Shown here piece after piece: positions 2,703-59,924 of a DNA stretch of 64,000 nucleotides. Location of the stretch: assembly GCA_965116145.1 (NCBI GenBank), contig OZ220482.1:1916143-1980142 (forward strand), given 5' to 3'. Every line of letters begins with the position of its first letter. Position 1 is the first letter of the stretch. Source of the stretch: Thermoanaerobaculia bacterium (lineage in GTDB: Bacteria; Acidobacteriota; Thermoanaerobaculia; Multivoradales; Multivoraceae). The notes below the pieces were generated by a model. That model saw only the letters and a program-made list of their open reading frames with translations. It was not told where the DNA came from and made no database searches. The position numbers and the translations under genes were made by a program.

Positions 2703-3887
2703 TCAGGTGTACAGCAAGACCGATTCGCACTCGGCTCGGAATTCCTGCTGGTCCTGCGGCCATGCAGTGAACCAGCGCTCGACCGAGCCAGGGGTCTCGA
2801 GACCGAGTCGGAAACGATCCGTTCCCGCCAGTAGATCGATCGCCGGCGTGTTCTCGACGAACTCGTAGGGCTCGTGCCGCCAACGGAAGTCCTCACCCAG
2901 AACGTCGCGAAAGGCCAGCAGCAGCTCGAAGCCCAGCCGCACCGGCCGCAGGAGCCCTGCATCCAGGAGCCGCAGCTCGACGCCGGCGCACACGGAGCCG
3001 GCGTGCTTCTGGAACTGGGGCCTGAACATCGCGGGAACCACGGAGACTCCCTTGATCCCGGCAGCCGCCAGGCGCTCGCCGCAGCGTGCCGCCAGAGCCG
3101 GAGCGTCGGCGCCCGGGACACCCAGAAGCTGAAACGGCCTTGTCGTCCCGCGTCCCTCGGACACCGTGGTCGCTTCGAACAGGCACAGGCCCGGGTAGAG
3201 ATGCACCGTCTCCGGTGTCGGCATGTTGGGCGACGGTGCCGTCCAGGGCCAGCCGGTGTCCCGCCATGCCTGCTGTCGGCGCCAGCCGCCGACCTCGAAG
3301 ACCGTCAGCAGGGAGGCGTCCCAGCGCCGGCGGCGGGCCTCCAACCGCAGGATCTCCGCAACCGTCAGACCATGGCGCTGCGGCATCCGGAAGGCGCCGA
3401 CGAAGGACGCGAACCCGGTCTCGGTGAGGTTTCCCTCCACTTCCAGACCGCCCAGCGGATTGGGTCGATCGAGGACCCACACTTCGCATCCCGAGCTCAG
3501 CGCCGCCTCGGCGGCCCAGACCGCGGTGGCGGCGAAGGTGTAGTAGCGCGCACCCACATCCTGGAGATCGATCACCAGCAGATCGCAGCCGTCGAAGATA
3601 CCCGGCCTCGGCCGGAGGCTGCGTATGTCGTCGCCGTAGAGCGACACCAACGGCCGGCCGGTCCACGGTTCGCGCTGGTCGCCCGACGCGACCATGTCCT
3701 GTTCGACACCATGGAATCCATGCTCGGGCCCCAGAAGGACCTCCGCGGGTTGGATTTCGTCCAGGGCCACGTGGGCGTGGACGCCGGCAAGGCTCAAGGA
3801 CGCCTGGTGGCAGAGCAACGCGTAGCGTCGTCCCCTGAGGCGCCCGGAGTCGTCGAGCAGGCGGTCGAGTCCGGACCGGATCGGCAC
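2703..3887 (-). CDS. DUF1343 / NamZ-like exo-beta-N-acetylmuramidase family protein
   Basis: 394 aa, GTG start. Resemblance to the DUF1343 (YbbC/NamZ) fold (RYALLCHQASLSL..., SLYGDD..., VLDRPNPLGG). Assignment from memory of the family, not searched. Confidence 0.55.
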   Translation of the reverse strand: MPIRSGLDRLLDDSGRLRGRRYALLCHQASLSLAGVHAHVALDEIQPAEVLLGPEHGFHGVEQDMVASGDQREPWTGRPLVSLYGDDIRSLRPRPGIFDGCDLLVIDLQDVGARYYTFAATAVWAAEAALSSGCEVWVLDRPNPLGGLEVEGNLTETGFASFVGAFRMPQRHGLTVAEILRLEARRRRWDASLLTVFEVGGWRRQQAWRDTGWPWTAPSPNMPTPETVHLYPGLCLFEATTVSEGRGTTRPFQLLGVPGADAPALAARCGERLAAAGIKGVSVVPAMFRPQFQKHAGSVCAGVELRLLDAGLLRPVRLGFELLLAFRDVLGEDFRWRHEPYEFVENTPAIDLLAGTDRFRLGLETPGSVERWFTAWPQDQQEFRAECESVLLYT

Positions 3888-4380: not shown

Positions 4381-4425
4381 CGCGGCAGCCCGGCGCGCAC
4401 AAGGGCGCCGGCGCCGCTCGCTAAC

Positions 4426-4596
4426 CTAGCAGCCTGTCGCAAGGGTCACGCCGTACTCGTTTCCGCCATGCATCTCCGTCCGGCTGCGTTGCTTTTCACT
4501 CAGACATGCACGACATGCGTCGCCATGATGAAGCCTTGCCGGACGGGCGCCTGACCGCTCCCGGTGCGACACGAACGTCCGCCACGGATTGCCAGG
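4426..4596 (-). repeat. MITE-like element copy (full length, orientation B), in divergent moaC/GT2 intergenic region
   Basis: ctagcagcctgtcgc...gccatgcatctccgtccggctgcgttgcttttc...ccttgccggacgggcgcctgaccgctcccggtgcgacac...ccacggattgccagg. Shares both conserved cores and terminal inverted repeats with the 8555..8722 copy. Confidence 0.7.
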
Positions 4597-4601
4597 AGGA
4601 G

Positions 4602-5285
4602 ATGCGAGTCGCGATCGTCATGCCGGTGCTGGAGGAGGCGGCACGGGTACAGGACGCCGTCGACGCGGCCCGCGCTCACTGCGACGAACTCCTCGTCATC
4701 GACGGCGGCAGCACGGATCGGACCGCGGAACTGGCCGCCGACAGGGGCGCCCGGGTTGTCACCCTGCCGCGGGCCGGGCGCGGGCTGCAGCTCCGAACGG
4801 GCGCTGACCTGGCCCTCCGGACCGGCGCCGATGTGCTGCTCTTCCTCCACGCCGACACGCGGCTGCCGCCGGCCGCCAGGTCCGGCCTGGAGGAAGCGGT
4901 GCAGGCCGGTGCGGTCGGCGGCGGTTTCCTGATCGACTTCGAGCCGACATCGCCGCTGTTGCGGCGCGGCCGGGTCCTGGTCGATTTCCGCACCCGCCGG
5001 CTGCGTCTGCCGCTCGGCGACCAGGCCCAGTTCGCCACGGCCGCGGCCTACGCCGCCAGCGGCGGCTTCTCCGACCTGCCGATTCTCGAGGATCTCGACT
5101 TCATCGGCCGTCTCCGCCGGCAGGGACCGATCTCCATCGTCGAGCAGCGCGCGACGACGTCATCCCGACGCTTCGCCGAACGAGGCGTGGTGCGCACCGT
5201 CGCGACGAACTGGCTGATCTGGTTGCTGTTCGCGGCCGGCGTCAAGCCGACCCGGCTGGCCAGCCTCTACCCCCTGGTGCGCTGA
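4602..5285 (+). CDS. family-2 glycosyltransferase
   Basis: ATG 4602 preceded by AGGAGGAG. MRVAIVMPVLEEA..ELLVIDGGSTDRT..RGARVV is a GT-A fold N-terminus. The track N-terminal 32 aa are read-through of the upstream MITE copy. Confidence 0.7.
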   Translation: MRVAIVMPVLEEAARVQDAVDAARAHCDELLVIDGGSTDRTAELAADRGARVVTLPRAGRGLQLRTGADLALRTGADVLLFLHADTRLPPAARSGLEEAVQAGAVGGGFLIDFEPTSPLLRRGRVLVDFRTRRLRLPLGDQAQFATAAAYAASGGFSDLPILEDLDFIGRLRRQGPISIVEQRATTSSRRFAERGVVRTVATNWLIWLLFAAGVKPTRLASLYPLVR

Positions 5286-39101: not shown

Positions 39102-40409
39102 TCACCGGTCCGCCGAAGCCGGGCCCGGGAGGCCCACCGTGACGAACATCCGGTCCGGGTCCAGGTGTCGGCGCGCCGCCTGGAAGACGCCGTCGGGGCA
39201 GAGCCGTTCGATCCGTTCCAGCCGCCAGGAACGTCGATAGCTCGGCAGGTCGAAGAGCAGCGCGTCCACGAGCTGTCCGGTCCACAGGCCGGCGGTCTCG
39301 GTCAGGAACGCCTCGCGGCCGAACATGCCGGTCCGGCACGCCTCGAGGACGGCGGCTTCGGGCGGGCGCTCCAGCACCTCGAGCAGCGCATCGCGCACCA
39401 GCTCGAGGGCGCGCTCGACGTGGTCCGGGTGAGTGCCGAGATAGACCGAGAGCGCACCAGGATCGGCGCCGGCGCCGGCCAGCAGGTCGACGTGGGCGGC
39501 GTACGCGAGCCCCTCCTGTTCGCGAATGCGGTTGGGAATCAGCCCGGCCAGACCGTCCGACCCGAGCAGGATGCCGAGGGCGCGCAGCTCCGGCAGGTCG
39601 GGATGCCTCCGATCGACGGTGAAGTGACCGGTGTACACGTGCGCCTGCTCGCGCGAACCGGCGGCGACCTCGATCCGCCGTTCAGACCGACCTTGCGGCC
39701 TGGGCGGTTCGGCGCGGAGGACTCCACCGGCGGCCGCTTCCGGCGCGGCGCCGCCGCCGAACAGTCGGTCCAGGTCCGAGAGCACCGCCTCTTCGTCGAT
39801 GTCGCCGGTCACGGCGACCACACCGCCGCGCGCCACGGCCTGCTCGTGGAATTGCCGGCAGTCGCGGGGCGTCAACCGCGCCAGCGATTCGGCTGTCCCC
39901 TGGCTCGGCGACGCCAGCGGGTGCGGGTGGTAGAGCTGATCGCGGAAGGTCCAGCCGGTGACGACGTCAGGTCGGTCCGCCAGACTTCGGAGTTCGCCCA
40001 GGGTCTGGTCGCGCAGGAGTTCGAAGCGTGCCCGATCGAAGGCGGGTTCGAGCAGCAGTTCGGCCAGCCAACCGAGCGCAAGCCCGGCATCGTCGGCCAG
40101 CGCATTGATCGTCAGGCCATGGACCTCGGCGGTTGCCAGCCCGCTCAGCGAGACGCCGCGCGCCTCGGCCTGCTCGGCGATCTCGCTCCAGGTTCGCCGG
40201 GAGCTGCCCTCGACCAGCATGCGGCCGCACAGCAAGGACAGCCCGGGCAGCGGCTCGCGCCGGCCGCCGCCGCGCAGCCAGGCCTGCGCCGCAACCACGC
40301 CGGAGTCCGGCACGCGAAGCGCGGCAAGCCGGAGTCGGCCCGACCAGAGGTCGAGCCGCAGCGGCTCGCGCCCACGGGAGAGGGACACCCCGGCACCACT
40401 CGCGGTCAC
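39102..40409 (-). CDS. M16-family peptidase, non-catalytic-type subunit
   Basis: Insulinase fold (paired with upstream M16 gene) but no HxxEH motif. 435 aa. GTG start overlapping the upstream stop (GTGA). Confidence 0.7.
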   Translation of the reverse strand: MTASGAGVSLSRGREPLRLDLWSGRLRLAALRVPDSGVVAAQAWLRGGGRREPLPGLSLLCGRMLVEGSSRRTWSEIAEQAEARGVSLSGLATAEVHGLTINALADDAGLALGWLAELLLEPAFDRARFELLRDQTLGELRSLADRPDVVTGWTFRDQLYHPHPLASPSQGTAESLARLTPRDCRQFHEQAVARGGVVAVTGDIDEEAVLSDLDRLFGGGAAPEAAAGGVLRAEPPRPQGRSERRIEVAAGSREQAHVYTGHFTVDRRHPDLPELRALGILLGSDGLAGLIPNRIREQEGLAYAAHVDLLAGAGADPGALSVYLGTHPDHVERALELVRDALLEVLERPPEAAVLEACRTGMFGREAFLTETAGLWTGQLVDALLFDLPSYRRSWRLERIERLCPDGVFQAARRHLDPDRMFVTVGLPGPASADR

Positions 40410-41698
40410 GGCGCGTCGACCGGCAGCGACCAGCCGACAACCCGGGTCGCCGGGGCCAGCCAGTCCGCGCAGGCGGCGCGGACGTCGGCGGCGGTGGCGC
40501 GGGCGAGCACCTCGTACGAGTCACGACTGAAGCCGGGAAAGAAGAGAGCGTGCTCGATGGCGGCCGAGATCGCCCGTTCTGCGACTCGCTCGTGCAGGAA
40601 CACCCAGTCGGCGAACAGCACGCGCTTCGCCCGATCGAGTTCCGCCGCGGACGGCGGGCTCGCGGCAAGCTGGTCGATCCGTGCGCACACCTCGGCTTCC
40701 AGGCGAGCAGGCTCGACCCCGATCGCCGTTTCCGCCGCCAGGGTCGACATGCCGCCGAGCCGGTGACCGCTGGACGCGCCGGCGGCCCACAGCGCCAGCG
40801 GCTCCAGTTCGACCAGGTCGTGCTGGATGCGGCTCGCACGGCCGCTGGCAAGGACGGTCAGAGCAAGACGGACATGGACGTGGAGCGGGTCATCGGCGGC
40901 CGGCGCCGGATGCGCAACCAGGAGCCGTGCCGTATCGCCCCGGCGCAGCTCGACCCGGCAGGCAGACCCGCGAGCGAAGACGGGCGGCCCGGCGCGGTCG
41001 CTGCAGGCGGACGGCCGCGGGACGCAGGCGTCCTCGGAAACGCCGTTGCCGAGGATCGCCTCGATCCGATCCGCCGCATCCGGCGGCAGACCTCCGGCGG
41101 CGGCAAGAACTGCCCGGTCGGGGCGATAGTGGCGGCGGTGAAACGAACCGAGGGACGCACCGTTCAGCCGGCGCAGGCTCTCCCTGGTCCCGAGCACGGG
41201 GCGGCCATACGGATGGCCGCCGAAGACGCGCTCTGCCACTGCCTGCCCCAGAACGTCCCAGGGATCGTCCTCGACCATCCGGATCTCCTCGACGATGACC
41301 TCGCGCTCGCTCTCGACCTCTTCCGGCAGCAGGCTCAGGCTCCGCATCCGATCCGCCTCGATCCTCAGCGCCTCCTCCCAGAAGCTGCAGGCGAACCGGA
41401 AGTGGTAAGCAGTGACGTCGTGCGAGGTGAACGCGTTGTTCGTGCCGCCGAAGCCCTGGGTCACGCGGTCGATCGCTCCCGGCGGATAGCGCGTCGAGCC
41501 CTTGAACATCATGTGCTCCAGGAAGTGCGCGAGCCCCGCCTCGTCCGGGACCTCGTCCCGGCTGCCGGCCCGGTAGCACAGGACGGTCACGATCGACTCG
41601 GCGTCCGCCTGCGGCAGCAACACGACCGTCAGACCGTTATCCAGGACCTGCGCCTCGGCGGTCACCCGGTCGAACACGCTCAGATCGATCGTCGTCAC
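40406..41698 (-). CDS. M16-family zinc peptidase (HxxEH inverzincin motif)
   Basis: GLAHFLEHMMFKGS (HxxEH) ... EREVIVEEI. GTG 41698 overlaps the phosphoesterase stop (GTGA). Track N-terminal 62 aa trimmed. Confidence 0.8.
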   Translation of the reverse strand: MTTIDLSVFDRVTAEAQVLDNGLTVVLLPQADAESIVTVLCYRAGSRDEVPDEAGLAHFLEHMMFKGSTRYPPGAIDRVTQGFGGTNNAFTSHDVTAYHFRFACSFWEEALRIEADRMRSLSLLPEEVESEREVIVEEIRMVEDDPWDVLGQAVAERVFGGHPYGRPVLGTRESLRRLNGASLGSFHRRHYRPDRAVLAAAGGLPPDAADRIEAILGNGVSEDACVPRPSACSDRAGPPVFARGSACRVELRRGDTARLLVAHPAPAADDPLHVHVRLALTVLASGRASRIQHDLVELEPLALWAAGASSGHRLGGMSTLAAETAIGVEPARLEAEVCARIDQLAASPPSAAELDRAKRVLFADWVFLHERVAERAISAAIEHALFFPGFSRDSYEVLARATAADVRAACADWLAPATRVVGWSLPVDAP

Positions 41699-42555
41699 GC
41701 CAGCTCGCAGTCGTGGACCGCTCCGACCTCGAAGCGGCCGCGGCCCTCGGACCAGACCAGTTGCTCCACCCGGGCGTTTCGGTCCCCGGGTCCCGCCGCC
41801 AGGGTGATCCAGTTGCAGCTCCGGCTGCCCTGCTCCACTCCCCGGCCCCGTCTCGACGTGGACGTTCCACTGTGGACCAGCCATGGCCGCCGGGGGCCCT
41901 CAGGCGCCCGGCCCAGGGCGGCGACATGGACATGCCCCGACAGGACCAGATCGACATCGGCCGCGGCGAACGCGGCCAGCGCCTCGCCGCTGCGTCGGGC
42001 CACGGGCCAGCCCATGAGTTCGGGCAGGGCCGCCAGCGGGTGGTGGGCGACCGCGACGCGCACCGGACGCAGCGGCGCCGGCGGCGACGGATCTCCAGTC
42101 GACAGATCGGGCGCCGGTTGCGCGGCGCCAGGCCTGCGGGATCCGAACCGCTCGCGGATGCGGGCCAACTGCCTGGCGGTGAAGCGGCCCCGGTCGATCG
42201 TCAGGTGGAAGGCCGTGTTGAAACCGACGACCTCCATCTCGTCGTCCGCGAAGGCCGGTTCGAGATCGGCGCTGAAGTGACGGCGGTACGCACCGTAACT
42301 GTCGGCCAGCCGTTCCCAGAACCGGTACATGGGAACGTCGTGATTGCCCGGCACGGCAAGATACGGGCATCCCAGACCGTCGAGAAACCGGCGCGCCTGC
42401 CGGAACTGCGCCACCCGGGCGCGCTGGGTCAGGTCGCCCGAGACGACGACGAGGTCGGGCCGCTTCTCGGCAACCAGCGCCTCGACGCCCGCAGCCGCCG
42501 ACCGGTCGTGCGGCGGCCCGAAGTGGATATCGGAGATGTGGAGCAGGCGGCGCAG
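41695..42555 (-). CDS. calcineurin-like metallophosphoesterase (start codon unresolved; possible CTG start or frameshift)
   Basis: In-frame sequence upstream of track start 42414 continues without stop: SLRRLLHISDIHFGPPHDRSAAAGVEALVAEKRPDLVVVSGDLTQRARVAQFRQ...GNHD. These are the conserved phosphoesterase motifs I and II. No ATG/GTG/TTG in frame; a CTG at 42555 gives MRRLLHISDIHFG with GGGGA 9 nt upstream. Confidence 0.55.
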   Translation of the reverse strand: MRRLLHISDIHFGPPHDRSAAAGVEALVAEKRPDLVVVSGDLTQRARVAQFRQARRFLDGLGCPYLAVPGNHDVPMYRFWERLADSYGAYRRHFSADLEPAFADDEMEVVGFNTAFHLTIDRGRFTARQLARIRERFGSRRPGAAQPAPDLSTGDPSPPAPLRPVRVAVAHHPLAALPELMGWPVARRSGEALAAFAAADVDLVLSGHVHVAALGRAPEGPRRPWLVHSGTSTSRRGRGVEQGSRSCNWITLAAGPGDRNARVEQLVWSEGRGRFEVGAVHDCELA

Positions 42556-42582
42556 CGATGTCGTCCCCGACGATCCCGGGTC

Positions 42583-42846
42583 CTACCGGACCAGGAAGCT
42601 GCGTGCGCTCTCATCAATCCGCTCGCCGGCGAAATCGCCCAGAATCCCGAGAATCTCCTTGCCGCGGGCGCACCCGATCAGGAAGCCGACCGAGGCCGCC
42701 ACCGCCACCGAGGCCAGCGGATACTCGCGCACGAGCGACACCCAGTCGAGACCGGGCGTCAGGCTGCCGACGATCCGGTCTTCGATTGCCGGCTGTTCAG
42801 GATCGCCGGTCACGACGCAGCACAAGGCCCAGCGCGAACCCCGCAA
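42583..42846 (-). CDS. small hypothetical membrane protein (possible YqjE-like partner of the ElaB-like gene)
   Basis: 87-aa ORF with one hydrophobic segment (PLASVAVAASVGFLIGCA). Overlaps the upstream gene's 3' end by about 50 nt; no strong RBS. Confidence 0.25.
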   Translation of the reverse strand: MRGSRWALCCVVTGDPEQPAIEDRIVGSLTPGLDWVSLVREYPLASVAVAASVGFLIGCARGKEILGILGDFAGERIDESARSFLVR

Positions 42847-43347: not shown

Positions 43348-43423
43348 GGGGCAGTAGCTCAGCTGGGAGAGCACCACGTTCGCAACGTGGGGGTCGAGGG
43401 TTCAAGTCCCTTCTGCTCCACCA
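43348..43423 (+). tRNA. tRNA-Ala (anticodon CGC)
   Basis: GGGGCAG-TA-GCTCAGCTGGGAGAGC-A-CCACG-TTCGCAA-CGTGG-GGGTC-GAGGGTTCAAGTCCCTT-CTGCTCC-ACCA. G3:U70 Ala identity pair; CCA encoded. Confidence 0.85.
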
Positions 43424-56644: not shown

Positions 56645-58001
<1,357 letters not shown>

Positions 58002-58005
<4 letters not shown>

Positions 58006-59924
58006 GCGCAACCGCCGCCAGCCGTTTCGTCGTCGGCACGGCCGGCCACGTCGACCACGGCAAGACGCGGCTGGTCGAGGCCCTGACCGGAGTCGACTGC
58101 GACCGCTGGGAAGAGGAGAAGCAGCGCGGCATAACGATCGACCTCGGCTTCGCTTCGACGATCGAGGACGGCTGGCAGATCGGCTTCGTCGATGTGCCCG
58201 GACACGAGAGGTTCGTCCACAACGCGCTCGCCGGGCTCGGCGGTATCCAGATGATGATGATGGTCGTCGCCGCCGACGAAGGCGTCATGCCCCAGACCCG
58301 GGAACACCTCGCGATCTGCTCCCTGCTCCGGATTCCGGCCGGCCTCGCCGTCCTCTCCAAGACAGACCTCGTGCCCGCCGATCTCGCGGAGCTGGCCGCG
58401 CTGGAACTCGAGGAGACGCTCGCGGAAACTCCGTTCGCCGGCGCGCCGATCCTGCCGGTGTCGGCCCGGACCGGGGAGGGCCTCGGGCGGCTTCGCGCCG
58501 CCCTGCTCGACCTCGCCCGATCGGCCAGTCCGATCGACCGCCAGCGCCGCCTGCCCGCGCGGCTGCCGATCGACCGCGCCTTCCACCTGCGCGGCCTCGG
58601 AGTGCTGGTCACCGGAACGCTCGCCCGGGGAACGGTCAGCGTCGGCGACGAACTTGCCGTCCTGCCCGCGGACCGCCCGGCCCGGGTACGCAGCATCGAG
58701 GTCCACGGCGACCGCCGGCAGCAGGCGGAGGCCGGCGAGCGGACTTCGGTTCAGCTCGTCGGCGTCGACCTCGAACAGGTCGCCCGCGGCCACGAGCTGG
58801 CCGCGCCCGGCGTCTACCGCGCCACGAACTCGCTGCTCGTCCGCTGCCGGCTGCTTGCCGACGCTCCGGAACCGCTTCAGGGAAGCTGTGCCGTGCGAGT
58901 CCACGTCAACGCCGCGCAACGCATCGGCAAGCTGCGTGCGCTCGACAGCGAACGTCTGGCGCCGGGAGACGAGGCGCTGGCGGAGATCCGGCTGGACGAG
59001 CCGCTGGTGACGATCCGGGGCGACCGCTTCGTCATCCGCAGGCCCTCGCCCCAGACCACGCTCGGAGGCGGCGAGGTGCTCGACCCGGCCTGGAGACGCC
59101 CCCGGAGGCAGAGTCTCGGAAACGCCCTCCGGGCGCTCGCCGCCAGCGACCGGCAGACGGCGGCCATCCAGTGGGCCGCCGACGGCCGAGAGGCCGGGCT
59201 CGCGGTCGGCGAACTCGGACTGCGGCTGGGCGTGGCCCCCGCCGATGCAGAGGACCTTCTGAACGGCGCCGAACGCGAGGGCCATCTGCTCAAGGCAGCC
59301 CCCCGACGCTACGTCATCGGGGCCGAAGTCCGCGGCGTGGTCCGCCGCGCCCGCCGCCTGGTCGAGGCGCACTTCGCCGCCGATCGCCTGTCCCGCGGCA
59401 TGCCGAAGGCCGAGCTCGTCCGGCGGCTGCTCGACACCCGCGCCGCCGACCTGGCGCCCGCCTACCTGGACTGGGCGAGCCGCGGCAGCAGCAACGAAGC
59501 GATCGCGATCGAGGGCGACCTCGCGACCCTGCCCGACCGCACCAGCGAACTGACCGGAGCCGAGTCGAAGCTCGCCCGGGACATCGTCCAGGGCTTCGAG
59601 CGCCAGGGCCTGACCCCGAACTCACCCGAGGACCTCTGCCGCACCCTGAACGCCAAGCCGCAACTGTTCGACGGTGTGCTCCGGTACCTCGTCGACCGCG
59701 GCCAGATCGTCCGGCTTCCCGGCGGCCTGCTCGTCGCCGCCGTCTCCCTGGAGCGCCTCCAGGCCGACCTGCAGGCGACCGGCTGGGACACGTTCACCGT
59801 CGCCGACTTCAAGGACCGCTTCGGACTGACCCGCAAGTGGGCGATCCCGCTGCTGGAGTACACGGACCGGCAGCGTCTGACCCGGCGGGAGGGAGACCGA
59901 CGGCGGGTGCTGCGGCCGCCATAG
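58002..59924 (+). CDS. selB: selenocysteine-specific translation elongation factor
   Basis: VVGTAGHVDHGKTRLVEALTGVDCDRWEEEKQRGITIDLGFA, DVPGHERF, EF-Tu-like domains II/III, about 260-aa C-terminal winged-helix extension. 640 aa. GTG overlaps ntrX stop (GTGA). Confidence 0.8.

What the first reader, a model, noticed from the sequence alone, without database searches (positions are those of the whole stretch)
42414..42620. Metallophosphoesterase lacks any canonical start codon upstream of its conserved motif I
The ORF-track model starts after the GDxHG region, but the same frame continues upstream without a stop through LLHISDIHFGPPHD...VVVSGD, which are the diagnostic motifs I and II. From there back to the TAG at about 42570 there is no ATG/GTG/TTG. 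The only ATG (42614) is in the +1 frame. Three readings fit: a CTG start at 42555 (MRRLLHISDIHFG, with GGGGA SD), a +1 frameshift or sequencing indel near 42560-42600, or a recent pseudogene.
Basis: seen in the sequence. Interest (0 to 1): 0.5.

Follow-up and report, generated by a model that had tools for sequence, protein, structure and literature searches.

The report
Phosphoesterase gene starting at CTG
An intact, conserved metallophosphoesterase gene most likely starts at a rare CTG codon, at the exact position where related genomes have GTG, ATG or TTG, so this is a rare but known kind of start codon that standard gene finders miss, not a broken gene.

Summary
The minus-strand metallophosphoesterase (MPE) frame is open from TAG 42585-42583 to TGA 41697-41695. 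It has no in-frame ATG/GTG/TTG before GTG 42414, which lies after catalytic motifs I and II.

CTG 42555-42553 aligns with the start codon of the orthologues. Of 36 sequences (35 related loci plus the window), 14 have GTG, 2 ATG, 7 TTG and 11 CTG there, always 8 codons before the motif-I Asp. Eight other species-level genomes also have CTG with no canonical start upstream. GenBank already annotates one such orthologue from its CTG.

In that CTG clade, codons 2-47 are under strong purifying selection (dN/dS 0.09). Window versus GTG relatives gives 0.10-0.19. The window protein keeps all 48 family-invariant residues. A composition scan places coding onset exactly at the CTG. The model has beta-strand 1 at residues 2-7.

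The frameshift/indel and readthrough-fusion readings are rejected. A recent pseudogene or a single-base error cannot be fully excluded, but both are unlikely.

The neighbouring gene's tree places the window inside the GTG clade, so its CTG is probably an independent GTG-to-CTG change. The public 211-aa model of this gene is truncated and has no Pfam hit.

Verdict: a new member of a known, rare kind. Interest is modest.

The parts
41695..42555 (-). Full metallophosphoesterase CDS as proposed: 286 codons from CTG 42555 to TGA 41697-41695.
   Evidence: Translation. Pfam Metallophos scores 66.5 bits over profile positions 2-190 of 191. Orthologues of 266-293 aa match end to end. The AlphaFold model has pLDDT 89.5.
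42553..42555 (-). Proposed CTG initiation codon.
   Evidence: It aligns with GTG, ATG or TTG start codons of orthologues and with CTG in 10 other loci. The composition scan places coding onset exactly here. R2 is invariant in 60 homologues.
42564..42568 (-). GGGGA Shine-Dalgarno-like element, 8 nt upstream of the CTG.
   Evidence: Sequence. Duplex with an assumed anti-SD sequence is -5.7 kcal/mol, similar to the orthologues.
42556..42582 (-). 27-nt spacer between the upstream gene's stop and the CTG.
   Evidence: GC by codon position is 0.44/0.89/0.78, which is not coding-like in this frame. Spacer length and phase vary among loci.
42583..42813 (-). Upstream 76-aa gene with a sub-threshold Pfam DUF883_C match (25.3 bits against a cut-off of 27). 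It starts at GTG 42813. Its stop TAG 42585-42583 is in phase with the MPE by coincidence.
   Evidence: The GTG start is conserved in 19 of 19 loci.
42412..42414 (-). First canonical in-frame start (GTG), codon 48. It would give a 239-aa product lacking motifs I and II.
   Evidence: Pfam falls to 31.9 bits over profile positions 51-190.
42328..42330 (-). ATG used by the public 211-aa model of this gene (P0009, MYRFWERL...). That product lacks motifs I to III.
   Evidence: It has no Pfam hit.
42523..42531 (-). Motif I: D9-I10-H11 (gat atc cac), metal ligands.
   Evidence: D9 and H11 are invariant in 60 homologues. Coordinates were derived.
42433..42438 (-). Motif II: G40-D41.
   Evidence: Invariant in 60 homologues.
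42337..42348 (-). Motif III: G70-N71-H72-D73.
   Evidence: Invariant in 60 homologues.
41696..41698 (-). GTG start of the downstream M16 peptidase. It overlaps the MPE stop as GTGA.

Best explanation
The gene is an intact, functional calcineurin-like metallophosphoesterase, closest in fold to Rv0805 and GpdQ. Its translation most likely starts at the near-cognate codon CTG 42555-42553, read by initiator tRNA as fMet, giving a 286-aa protein that begins MRRLLHISDIHFG. Shown here: this codon occupies the homologous start position of the family; nothing canonical lies upstream in frame; the 47 codons after it are coding and under selection; and the same CTG-only arrangement persists in a clade of at least eight other species. 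Inferred: a weak GGGGA SD-like element 8 nt upstream positions the ribosome, possibly helped by ribosomes terminating 27 nt upstream on the co-oriented 76-aa gene. Also inferred: expression is low compared with GTG or ATG orthologues, because CUG gives about 1-2% of AUG in E. coli. The window's CTG probably arose by its own G-to-C change from GTG. Gene finders restricted to ATG/GTG/TTG therefore truncate the gene.
For: (1) No in-frame ATG/GTG/TTG lies between TAG 42585 and GTG 42414.
(2) The aligned codon is NTG in 34 of 36 sequences, at a fixed 8 codons before the motif-I Asp. The counts are GTG 14, ATG 2, TTG 7 and CTG 11.
(3) Eight other species-representative genomes (L004, L005, L007-L011, L014) have CTG there, no canonical start upstream, and the next canonical start only 21-23 codons further on, after motif I.
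(4) Purifying selection acts on the region that would otherwise be untranslated. In the CTG clade, codons 2-23 have dN/dS 0.047 and codons 2-47 have 0.09. Window versus GTG-clade relatives gives 0.10-0.19 for codons 2-47.
(5) GC by codon position is 0.83/0.47/0.94 for the 47 codons after the CTG, against 0.44/0.89/0.78 for the 9 codons before it. The codon log-likelihood scan puts the best extension exactly at the CTG.
(6) R2, H6, S8, D9, H11, F12, G13, P33, G40, D41, T43, Q44, R45 and A46 are invariant in 60 homologues. The window keeps 48 of 48 invariant residues.
(7) The structure model has beta-strand 1 at residues 2-7, with mean pLDDT 96 over residues 1-10, and best matches Rv0805 and GpdQ.
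(8) The GenBank record VXXI01000005.1 annotates orthologue P0023 (accessions MXW00008.1 and MYC10061.1) from its CTG.
(9) The MPE is no more diverged than the neighbouring M16 peptidase.
(10) CUG is a documented weak bacterial initiator (bioRxiv 10.1101/063800).
Against: There is no direct evidence of initiation, such as Ribo-seq or an N-terminal peptide. CUG initiates poorly in E. coli, at 1-2% of AUG, and its initiation complexes are unstable (PMC11497404). The SD-like element is weak (-5.7 kcal/mol) and no stronger than in GTG orthologues. The window sits inside the GTG clade, so the clade-level conservation of CTG does not apply directly to it. Its MPE lineage shows slightly raised dN (0.10) and dN/dS (0.27, against 0.12-0.22 in sister lineages). 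No close relative (above 80% identity) is available to date the change.
Confidence: 0.8

Rival explanations
1. Recent pseudogene. The ancestral GTG start mutated to CTG in this lineage and the gene is no longer translated, or is translated only as an inactive N-terminally truncated product, but has not yet accumulated further damage.
For: The window nests inside the GTG clade, in 98% of bootstraps for the neighbouring gene and 89% for the concatenated genes, so the change may be recent. The window's MPE branch has somewhat higher dN (0.10) and dN/dS (0.27) than sister lineages (0.12-0.22). CUG is a poor initiator in E. coli.
Against: The gene has no stop or frameshift and keeps 48 of 48 family-invariant residues. 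It deviates at only 2 of 85 columns that are at least 90% conserved, which equals the family median. A dN/dS of 0.27 is far below 1 and close to that of the neighbouring M16 gene in the same lineage (0.24). The same CTG-only state is stably maintained under strong purifying selection in eight other species, so it is compatible with function. Operon structure and the GTGA overlap with the next gene are intact.
Confidence: 0.1
2. Base-call or assembly error. The true codon is GTG, as in the nearest relatives, and the C at 42555 is a consensus error.
For: The nearest relatives have GTG or ATG. The source is a single 3.73-Mb contig seen once in the collection. Reads are not available here.
Against: Substitution errors are rare in polished assemblies, and one would have to hit this exact base. 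A real CTG at this codon is seen independently in 10 other assemblies. Nothing else in the gene looks erroneous.
Confidence: 0.05
3. Frameshift or indel. Translation starts at ATG 42614 (or TTG 42617) in another frame and shifts into the MPE frame, or a 1-nt assembly indel hides an ATG-initiated frame.
For: An out-of-frame ATG/TTG ORF (42617-42429, 62 aa) exists.
Against: That ATG lies inside the conserved coding end of the upstream 76-aa gene, whose product is 75-86% identical across loci. Orthologues show no coding conservation in the spacer, which varies from 13 to 188 nt. The spacer is not coding-like in composition. The MPE alignment is colinear from the CTG with no indel.
Confidence: 0.01
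4. Stop-codon readthrough fusion. The upstream 76-aa ORF ends at a TAG in the same frame as the MPE, so the MPE would be made as a readthrough fusion without its own start.
For: In the window the TAG is in phase with the MPE, 27 nt upstream of the CTG.
Against: The phase is 0, 1 or 2 in different orthologous loci and the stop is TAG, TAA or TGA. L014 has a 188-nt spacer. No suppressor tRNA is present in the window. The spacer is not coding-like.
Confidence: 0.02

Closest known systems
CTG-start orthologues already annotated in GenBank, for example P0023 (accessions MXW00008.1 and MYC10061.1), read here on VXXI01000005.1 from a Holophagales MAG
   Same: It is the same gene family (about 72% identity), in the same operon context: PCMT, DUF883, 76-aa gene, MPE, M16, M16. 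The CTG is at the same codon and the product is annotated MRRLLHLS....
   Different: The window belongs to the sister clade whose members use GTG or ATG, so its CTG is probably an independent change. The window's own public gene model is truncated to 211 aa.
Known bacterial near-cognate start codons: CUG, AUU, AUC and AUA in translation table 11, and E. coli infC and pcnB with AUU (the last from general knowledge)
   Same: It has a single-mismatch start codon read by initiator tRNA. It is expected to be inefficient, with CUG at about 1-2% of AUG in E. coli (bioRxiv 10.1101/063800). Such codons are discriminated against by the initiation machinery (PMC11497404; PMC9723500 abstract). Switches to them are very rare: 4 switches to CUG among about 69,000 reconstructed starts (PMC5622118).
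   Different: There is no evidence here of an autoregulatory role like that of infC. This case rests on comparative evidence only, with no experiment. Here all four NTG codons occupy one homologous start site across a family.
Rv0805 (M. tuberculosis class III cyclic-nucleotide phosphodiesterase) and GpdQ (Enterobacter aerogenes glycerophosphodiesterase)
   Same: These are the best structural matches (Foldseek E about 1e-14, query-normalised TM 0.60-0.62). GpdQ is also the only PDB sequence match (E 3e-7). The five metallophosphoesterase motifs are shared.
   Different: Identity is only 16-22%. No NCBIfam equivalog reaches its cut-off; CpdA PRK11148 scores 16.9 bits against 225. The substrate is unknown. 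A variable Pro/Gly/Ala-rich linker is present, with pLDDT below 50 at residues 142-149.

Membership tests
Calcineurin-like metallophosphoesterase superfamily (Pfam PF00149) | Match to the family HMM above the gathering score | tested here: met
   66.5 bits against a cut-off of 21.5, covering profile positions 2-190 of 191, when translated from upstream of the CTG.
Calcineurin-like metallophosphoesterase superfamily (Pfam PF00149) | Motifs I (DxH) and II (GD), which supply metal ligands | tested here: met
   D9, H11, G40 and D41 are invariant in 60 homologues. All lie upstream of the first canonical start.
Calcineurin-like metallophosphoesterase superfamily (Pfam PF00149) | Motifs III (GNHD/E), IV (H) and V (GHxH) | tested here: met
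   G70 N71 H72 D73, H171 H172, and G207 H208 H210 are invariant.
Calcineurin-like metallophosphoesterase superfamily (Pfam PF00149) | The superfamily's fold (known as a beta-sandwich flanked by helices, from general knowledge), judged by matches to solved members | tested here: met
   Model pLDDT 89.5 and pTM 0.89. Top PDB matches are Rv0805, GpdQ, Lmo2642 and purple acid phosphatases.
Calcineurin-like metallophosphoesterase superfamily (Pfam PF00149) | Metal-dependent phosphoester hydrolysis | not testable with these tools
   This needs an enzyme assay.
Class III cNMP phosphodiesterase CpdA / glycerophosphodiesterase GpdQ | Match to the curated equivalog model above its cut-off | tested here: not met
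   NCBIfam PRK11148 (CpdA) scores 16.9 bits against 225, and SpdA 23.2 against 400. Only the fold and motifs resemble these enzymes.
Bacterial gene initiated at a non-canonical CUG codon | No in-frame ATG/GTG/TTG between the upstream stop and essential N-terminal residues | tested here: met
Bacterial gene initiated at a non-canonical CUG codon | The CTG is homologous to the start codon of orthologues | tested here: met
   The aligned codon is GTG, ATG or TTG in 23 sequences and CTG in 11, at fixed spacing from motif I.
Bacterial gene initiated at a non-canonical CUG codon | Codons directly after the CTG are translated, shown by protein-level purifying selection and coding composition | tested here: met
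   dN/dS is 0.047-0.19. GC by codon position is coding-like. The codon log-likelihood onset is at the CTG.
Bacterial gene initiated at a non-canonical CUG codon | Ribosome-binding site at suitable spacing | tested here: inconclusive
   GGGGA lies 8 nt upstream and the duplex is -5.7 kcal/mol with an assumed anti-SD sequence. It is weak and similar to the GTG orthologues. The organism's 16S 3' end was not available.
Bacterial gene initiated at a non-canonical CUG codon | Direct detection of initiation at the CUG (fMet peptide, toeprint, or initiation-site Ribo-seq) | not testable with these tools
   An experiment is required.
Pseudogene by start-codon loss | Relaxed selection or secondary lesions (stops, frameshifts, loss of invariant residues) | tested here: not met
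   There are no lesions. The gene keeps 48 of 48 invariant residues. Branch dN/dS is 0.27, against 0.24 for the neighbouring gene.
Programmed frameshift or readthrough fusion with the upstream ORF | Conserved phase relation and coding conservation across the junction | tested here: not met
   Spacers run from 13 to 188 nt and occur in all three phases. The spacer is not coding-like.

The most novel reading that the evidence does not exclude
In this Thermoanaerobaculia / 'Candidatus Multivorans' group, CUG would be a selectively maintained start codon for this enzyme, not just a tolerated defect. It would have been acquired at least twice at the same site, and be kept usable by nucleotide-level constraint on the first 20 or so codons. 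In the CTG clade this is the window of lowest synonymous divergence in the gene (pS 0.10 against a median of 0.35, bottom 0.7% of sliding windows), whereas the GTG clade shows no such dip. That would point to a dedicated low-expression or initiation-factor-sensitive setting, or to lineage-specific relaxed discrimination against CUG.
Probability: 0.15. Interest if true: 0.5.

Novelty: new member of a known kind. Interest (0 to 1): 0.3.

Why it matters
The main consequence is for annotation. Gene finders limited to ATG/GTG/TTG cut this enzyme down to 211-253 aa in the window's genome and in many related MAGs. That removes two or three of the five catalytic motifs, and for the 211-aa model it removes any Pfam hit, so the gene is lost from functional profiles.

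Biologically, it is a clean natural example of one homologous start site occupied by all four NTG codons. The CTG state is held for a long time under purifying selection, which is rare in reconstructed start-codon evolution (PMC5622118). If the CTG is selected for, it would be a useful test case for how bacteria outside the model organisms use near-cognate start codons to set expression levels.

Tried and rejected
- **Frameshift or indel restoring ATG 42614.** Rejected. The ATG lies inside the conserved end of the upstream gene, the spacer is variable and non-coding, and the alignment is colinear from the CTG.
- **TAG readthrough fusion.** Rejected. The phase is not conserved across loci.
- **Compensatory stronger SD in CTG genomes.** Not seen. 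Mean duplex energy is -4.5 kcal/mol in CTG loci against -4.6 in GTG loci.
- **Conserved RNA structure around the CTG.** RNAalifold on 9 CTG sequences gave 0 compensatory pairs, so it is uninformative.
- **Widespread CTG use in the window.** Not seen. The codon-usage scan flags only this gene, plus two ORFs lying antisense to longer genes. Flanking genes have conserved ATG or GTG starts in 19 loci. A first version of the scan missed the positive control because of a filter and was discarded.
- **Alternative start at the second in-frame CTG (codon 4, 42546).** One GenBank orthologue, P0127, is annotated that way. I consider it less likely, because R2 is invariant, orthologue starts align with codon 1, and the SD spacing would be 17 nt.
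- **ACG 42564 as the start.** Rejected. It overlaps the SD-like element, is not conserved, and the composition upstream of the CTG is non-coding.
- **Calls that returned little or failed.**
  - The look-up of the source contig through P0009 found no record.
  - The exact-pattern scan of metagenome contigs returned only 3 loci, all GTG.
  - One literature query was malformed.
  - A Biopython bootstrap run timed out and was redone with numpy.
Full report
**1. The observation**

The feature is on the minus strand. The metallophosphoesterase (MPE) frame is open from just after TAG 42585-42583 down to TGA 41697-41695. It reads DPGSSGTTS-L(CTG 42555-42553)-RRLLHISDIHFGPPHD...DLVVVSGDLTQRAR-V(GTG 42414).

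A programmatic walk confirms there is no in-frame ATG, GTG or TTG between the stop and GTG 42414. That GTG is codon 48 counted from the CTG and lies after motifs I and II.

It is also the stop codon of the upstream 76-aa gene. ATG 42614-42612 is real, but it is out of frame, upstream of that TAG, and inside the conserved C-terminal coding sequence of the upstream gene. GGGGA sits at 42568-42564, 8 nt before the CTG.

**2. What the gene is**

Translated from upstream of the CTG, the protein matches Pfam Metallophos at 66.5 bits over profile positions 2-190 of 191. The 239-aa product from GTG 42414 scores only 31.9 bits over profile positions 51-190. The public model of this very gene (P0009, 211 aa, starting at ATG 42330) has no Pfam hit at all.

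In an alignment of 60 homologues, 48 columns are invariant. Fourteen of them lie upstream of the first canonical start: R2, H6, S8, D9, H11, F12, G13, P33, G40, D41, T43, Q44, R45 and A46.

An AlphaFold model built from that alignment has pLDDT 89.5 and pTM 0.89. Beta-strand 1 spans residues 2-7, and mean pLDDT over residues 1-10 is 96. Its best PDB matches are Rv0805 and GpdQ, at E about 1e-14. GpdQ is also the only PDB sequence match.

No NCBIfam equivalog reaches its cut-off. I therefore file the protein in the calcineurin-like metallophosphoesterase superfamily, nearest to the class III phosphodiesterase and GpdQ branch, with substrate unknown.

The gene sits in a conserved co-oriented cluster: PCMT, DUF883 (130 aa), a 76-aa gene, MPE, M16 peptidase, M16 peptidase. 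The MPE stop overlaps the GTG start of the next gene as GTGA.

**3. Comparative evidence on the start**

I collected 35 related loci from species-representative genomes, metagenome contigs and the contigs encoding database proteins. The table gives the codon aligned with the window's CTG in the 36 sequences, counting the window.

| Aligned codon | Sequences | Which |
|---|---|---|
| GTG | 14 | L001-L003, L006, L012, L016, L017, L021, L028-L030, L032, L033, L035 |
| ATG | 2 | L031 (the closest relative, 80% identity) and L019 |
| TTG | 7 | L015, L018, L020, L022, L023, L026, L027 |
| CTG | 11 | the window, L004, L005, L007-L011, L013, L014, L034 |
| other | 2 | L024 and L025, each with a canonical start 1-3 codons upstream |

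The NTG codon is always 8 codons before the motif-I Asp. This is therefore a conserved start site occupied by all four NTG codons.

Eight species-level genomes (L004, L005, L007-L011, L014) share the window's situation exactly. They have CTG, no canonical in-frame codon back to the upstream stop, and the next canonical start 21-23 codons downstream, after motif I. L013 has CTG but also in-frame ATGs 3 and 11 codons upstream.

Prodigal-type gene calls for that clade are truncated to 243-253 aa (MEALV...). GenBank records carry full-length proteins. For P0023 (accessions MXW00008.1 and MYC10061.1) I read the DNA on VXXI01000005.1, and the annotated gene does begin with ctg.

**4. Is the region after the CTG translated?**

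- **CTG clade.** dN/dS is 0.047 for codons 2-23 and 0.09 for codons 2-47, against 0.19 for the rest of the gene. Summed pairwise differences in codons 2-47 are 232 synonymous against 62 non-synonymous.
- **Window.** Against the five GTG-clade relatives, codons 2-47 give 0.10-0.19.
- **Composition.** GC by codon position is 0.83/0.47/0.94 for the 47 codons after the CTG, like other genes of the window. It is 0.44/0.89/0.78 for the 9 codons before it.
- **Codon-usage scan.** A log-likelihood scan of every ORF in the window picks the MPE as the only real gene with a coding-like extension upstream of its first canonical start. The best-scoring extension is exactly the 47 codons starting at the CTG. 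The two other high scorers lie antisense to longer genes. One of those genes has a GT2 Pfam hit while its antisense ORF has none; the other was judged from overlap and score only.
- **Flanking genes.** They have ordinary conserved starts in 19 loci. DUF883 has ATG in 19 of 19 and the 76-aa gene has GTG in 19 of 19. The M16 peptidase has ATG or GTG at the aligned codon in 14, with the start shifted in the other 5.

**5. Rival readings**

- **Frameshift or indel.** Orthologues are colinear from the CTG. The spacer between the upstream stop and the start is 13-45 nt, or 188 nt in L014, and varies in sequence and in all three phases. No hidden ATG-initiated frame exists. The same data reject a TAG readthrough fusion. 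The in-phase TAG in the window is a one-in-three coincidence.
- **Pseudogene.** The window's MPE is 74-78% identical to GTG-clade orthologues and 69-72% to the CTG clade. Its neighbour M16 shows 75-80% and 64-68%, so the MPE is not accelerated. It keeps 48 of 48 invariant residues and deviates at 2 of 85 columns that are at least 90% conserved, which is the family median. Three-point branch estimates give dN/dS 0.27 for the window's MPE lineage, against 0.12-0.22 for sister lineages. For M16 the values are 0.24 against 0.17-0.30. This is a mild elevation at most.
- **Base error.** This cannot be checked without reads. It would have to hit exactly this base, and CTG is demonstrably viable at this site in other genomes.

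**6. History of the change**

NJ bootstraps place the window with the GTG clade. Support is 100% for M16 and for the concatenated genes. The window is nested inside that clade in 98% and 89% of replicates. The MPE alone is ambiguous.

The most parsimonious reading is a separate GTG-to-CTG transversion in the window's lineage, distinct from the CTG of the eight-species clade. Switches to CUG are very rare in reconstructed start-codon evolution: 4 in about 69,000 ancestral starts (PMC5622118).

**7. Mechanism**

- **Shown.** The position, the absence of alternative starts, and translation of the codons immediately downstream.
- **Inferred.** Initiator tRNA reads the CUG with a first-position mismatch. 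A weak SD-like GGGGA 8 nt upstream positions the ribosome (duplex -5.7 kcal/mol with an assumed anti-SD sequence).
- **SD comparison.** SD-like strengths are the same in CTG and GTG loci (means -4.5 and -4.6 kcal/mol), so there is no compensatory SD.
- **Expected output.** CUG gives about 1-2% of AUG in E. coli (bioRxiv 10.1101/063800), and its initiation complexes are less stable (PMC11497404). Expression is therefore probably low unless this lineage is more permissive.
- **Upstream termination.** Ribosomes terminating 27 nt upstream may help. L014 keeps the CTG with a 188-nt spacer, so this cannot be a strict requirement.

**8. An unexplained hint**

In the CTG clade, codons 2-23 have the lowest synonymous divergence in the gene. 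Their pS is 0.10 against a median of 0.35, which is the bottom 0.7% of sliding windows. In the GTG clade the same window is unremarkable, at 0.29 against 0.35.

Predicted local folding around the start is weaker in CTG loci, with mean -13.0 kcal/mol against -18.1. RNAalifold found no covariation. This may reflect constraint on the initiation region when the start codon is weak. It rests on one gene and on comparisons that are not phylogenetically independent.

**9. Verdict**

This is a real, intact metallophosphoesterase gene that most likely initiates at CTG 42555 (confidence about 0.8). It is a new member of a known, rare kind. CTG is an accepted table-11 start codon, and GenBank already annotates CTG-clade orthologues that way.

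The practical consequence is an annotation error in the window's genome and in many related MAGs. Interest is modest (0.3). It would rise if the CTG proved to be a selected expression setting or a sign of lineage-wide tolerance of CUG initiation.

Noticed in passing
window 42583-42585 (minus strand): The TAG stop of the upstream 76-aa gene is in the same frame as the MPE, 27 nt before the CTG. Across 17 loci the spacer occurs in all three phases, so this is a coincidence and not a fusion signal.
   Followed up: yes
L004, L005, L007-L011, L014, MPE codons 2-23: Synonymous divergence of the first 22 codons is the lowest in the gene in the CTG clade (pS 0.10 against a median of 0.35), but not in the GTG clade (0.29 against 0.35). 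This may reflect nucleotide-level constraint on the initiation region. No RNA covariation was found.
   Followed up: partly
window 41695-42330 (minus strand): The public protein model of this gene (P0009, 211 aa, from ATG 42330) lacks motifs I to III and has no Pfam hit. Many related MAG gene calls are similarly truncated to 243-253 aa.
   Followed up: yes
P0127 (GenBank MCY3592774.1), an orthologue in the CTG clade: This GenBank protein starts MLHLSD, which corresponds to the fourth codon; that codon is CTG in the CTG-clade loci I read, but this record's DNA was not read. Other GenBank orthologues start at codon 1 (MRRLLHLS). Start placement among the annotated orthologues is therefore inconsistent.
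   Followed up: partly
window 41695-41698 and 40406-41884 (minus strand): The MPE stop TGA overlaps the GTG start of the downstream M16 peptidase as GTGA. The 492-aa ATG ORF listed for 40406-41884 is an over-extension into the MPE gene.
   Followed up: yes
L014, about positions 2810-3000: One CTG-clade genome has a 188-nt spacer between the 76-aa gene and the MPE, instead of 13-45 nt, yet keeps the CTG. The content of the insert was not examined.
   Followed up: no
window 4500-5159 (minus strand) and 57975-59621 (minus strand): These are long ORFs lying antisense to longer genes, with coding-like codon statistics. The first lies opposite a GT2 glycosyltransferase gene (+4425-5285) and has no Pfam hit itself. 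The second lies opposite +57933-59924 and was not tested against Pfam. Both are probably typical high-GC artefacts.
   Followed up: partly
window 42797-42813 (minus strand): The GTG start of the 76-aa gene (sub-threshold Pfam DUF883_C match, 25.3 bits against 27) overlaps the end of the preceding 130-aa DUF883 gene by 17 nt. The pair and both start codons are conserved in all 19 loci examined. The function of this small membrane-protein pair next to the MPE is unknown.
   Followed up: partly
window 43348-43423 (plus strand): A tRNA-Ala(CGC) gene on the plus strand sits between the minus-strand PCMT and DUF883 genes.
   Followed up: no
window about 42080-42150 (MPE residues about 135-160): This is a Pro/Gly/Ala-rich linker of variable length, differing by 16-40 aa among orthologues. 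It has pLDDT below 50 at residues 142-149. It appears to be a fast-evolving, probably disordered insertion within the catalytic domain.
   Followed up: no
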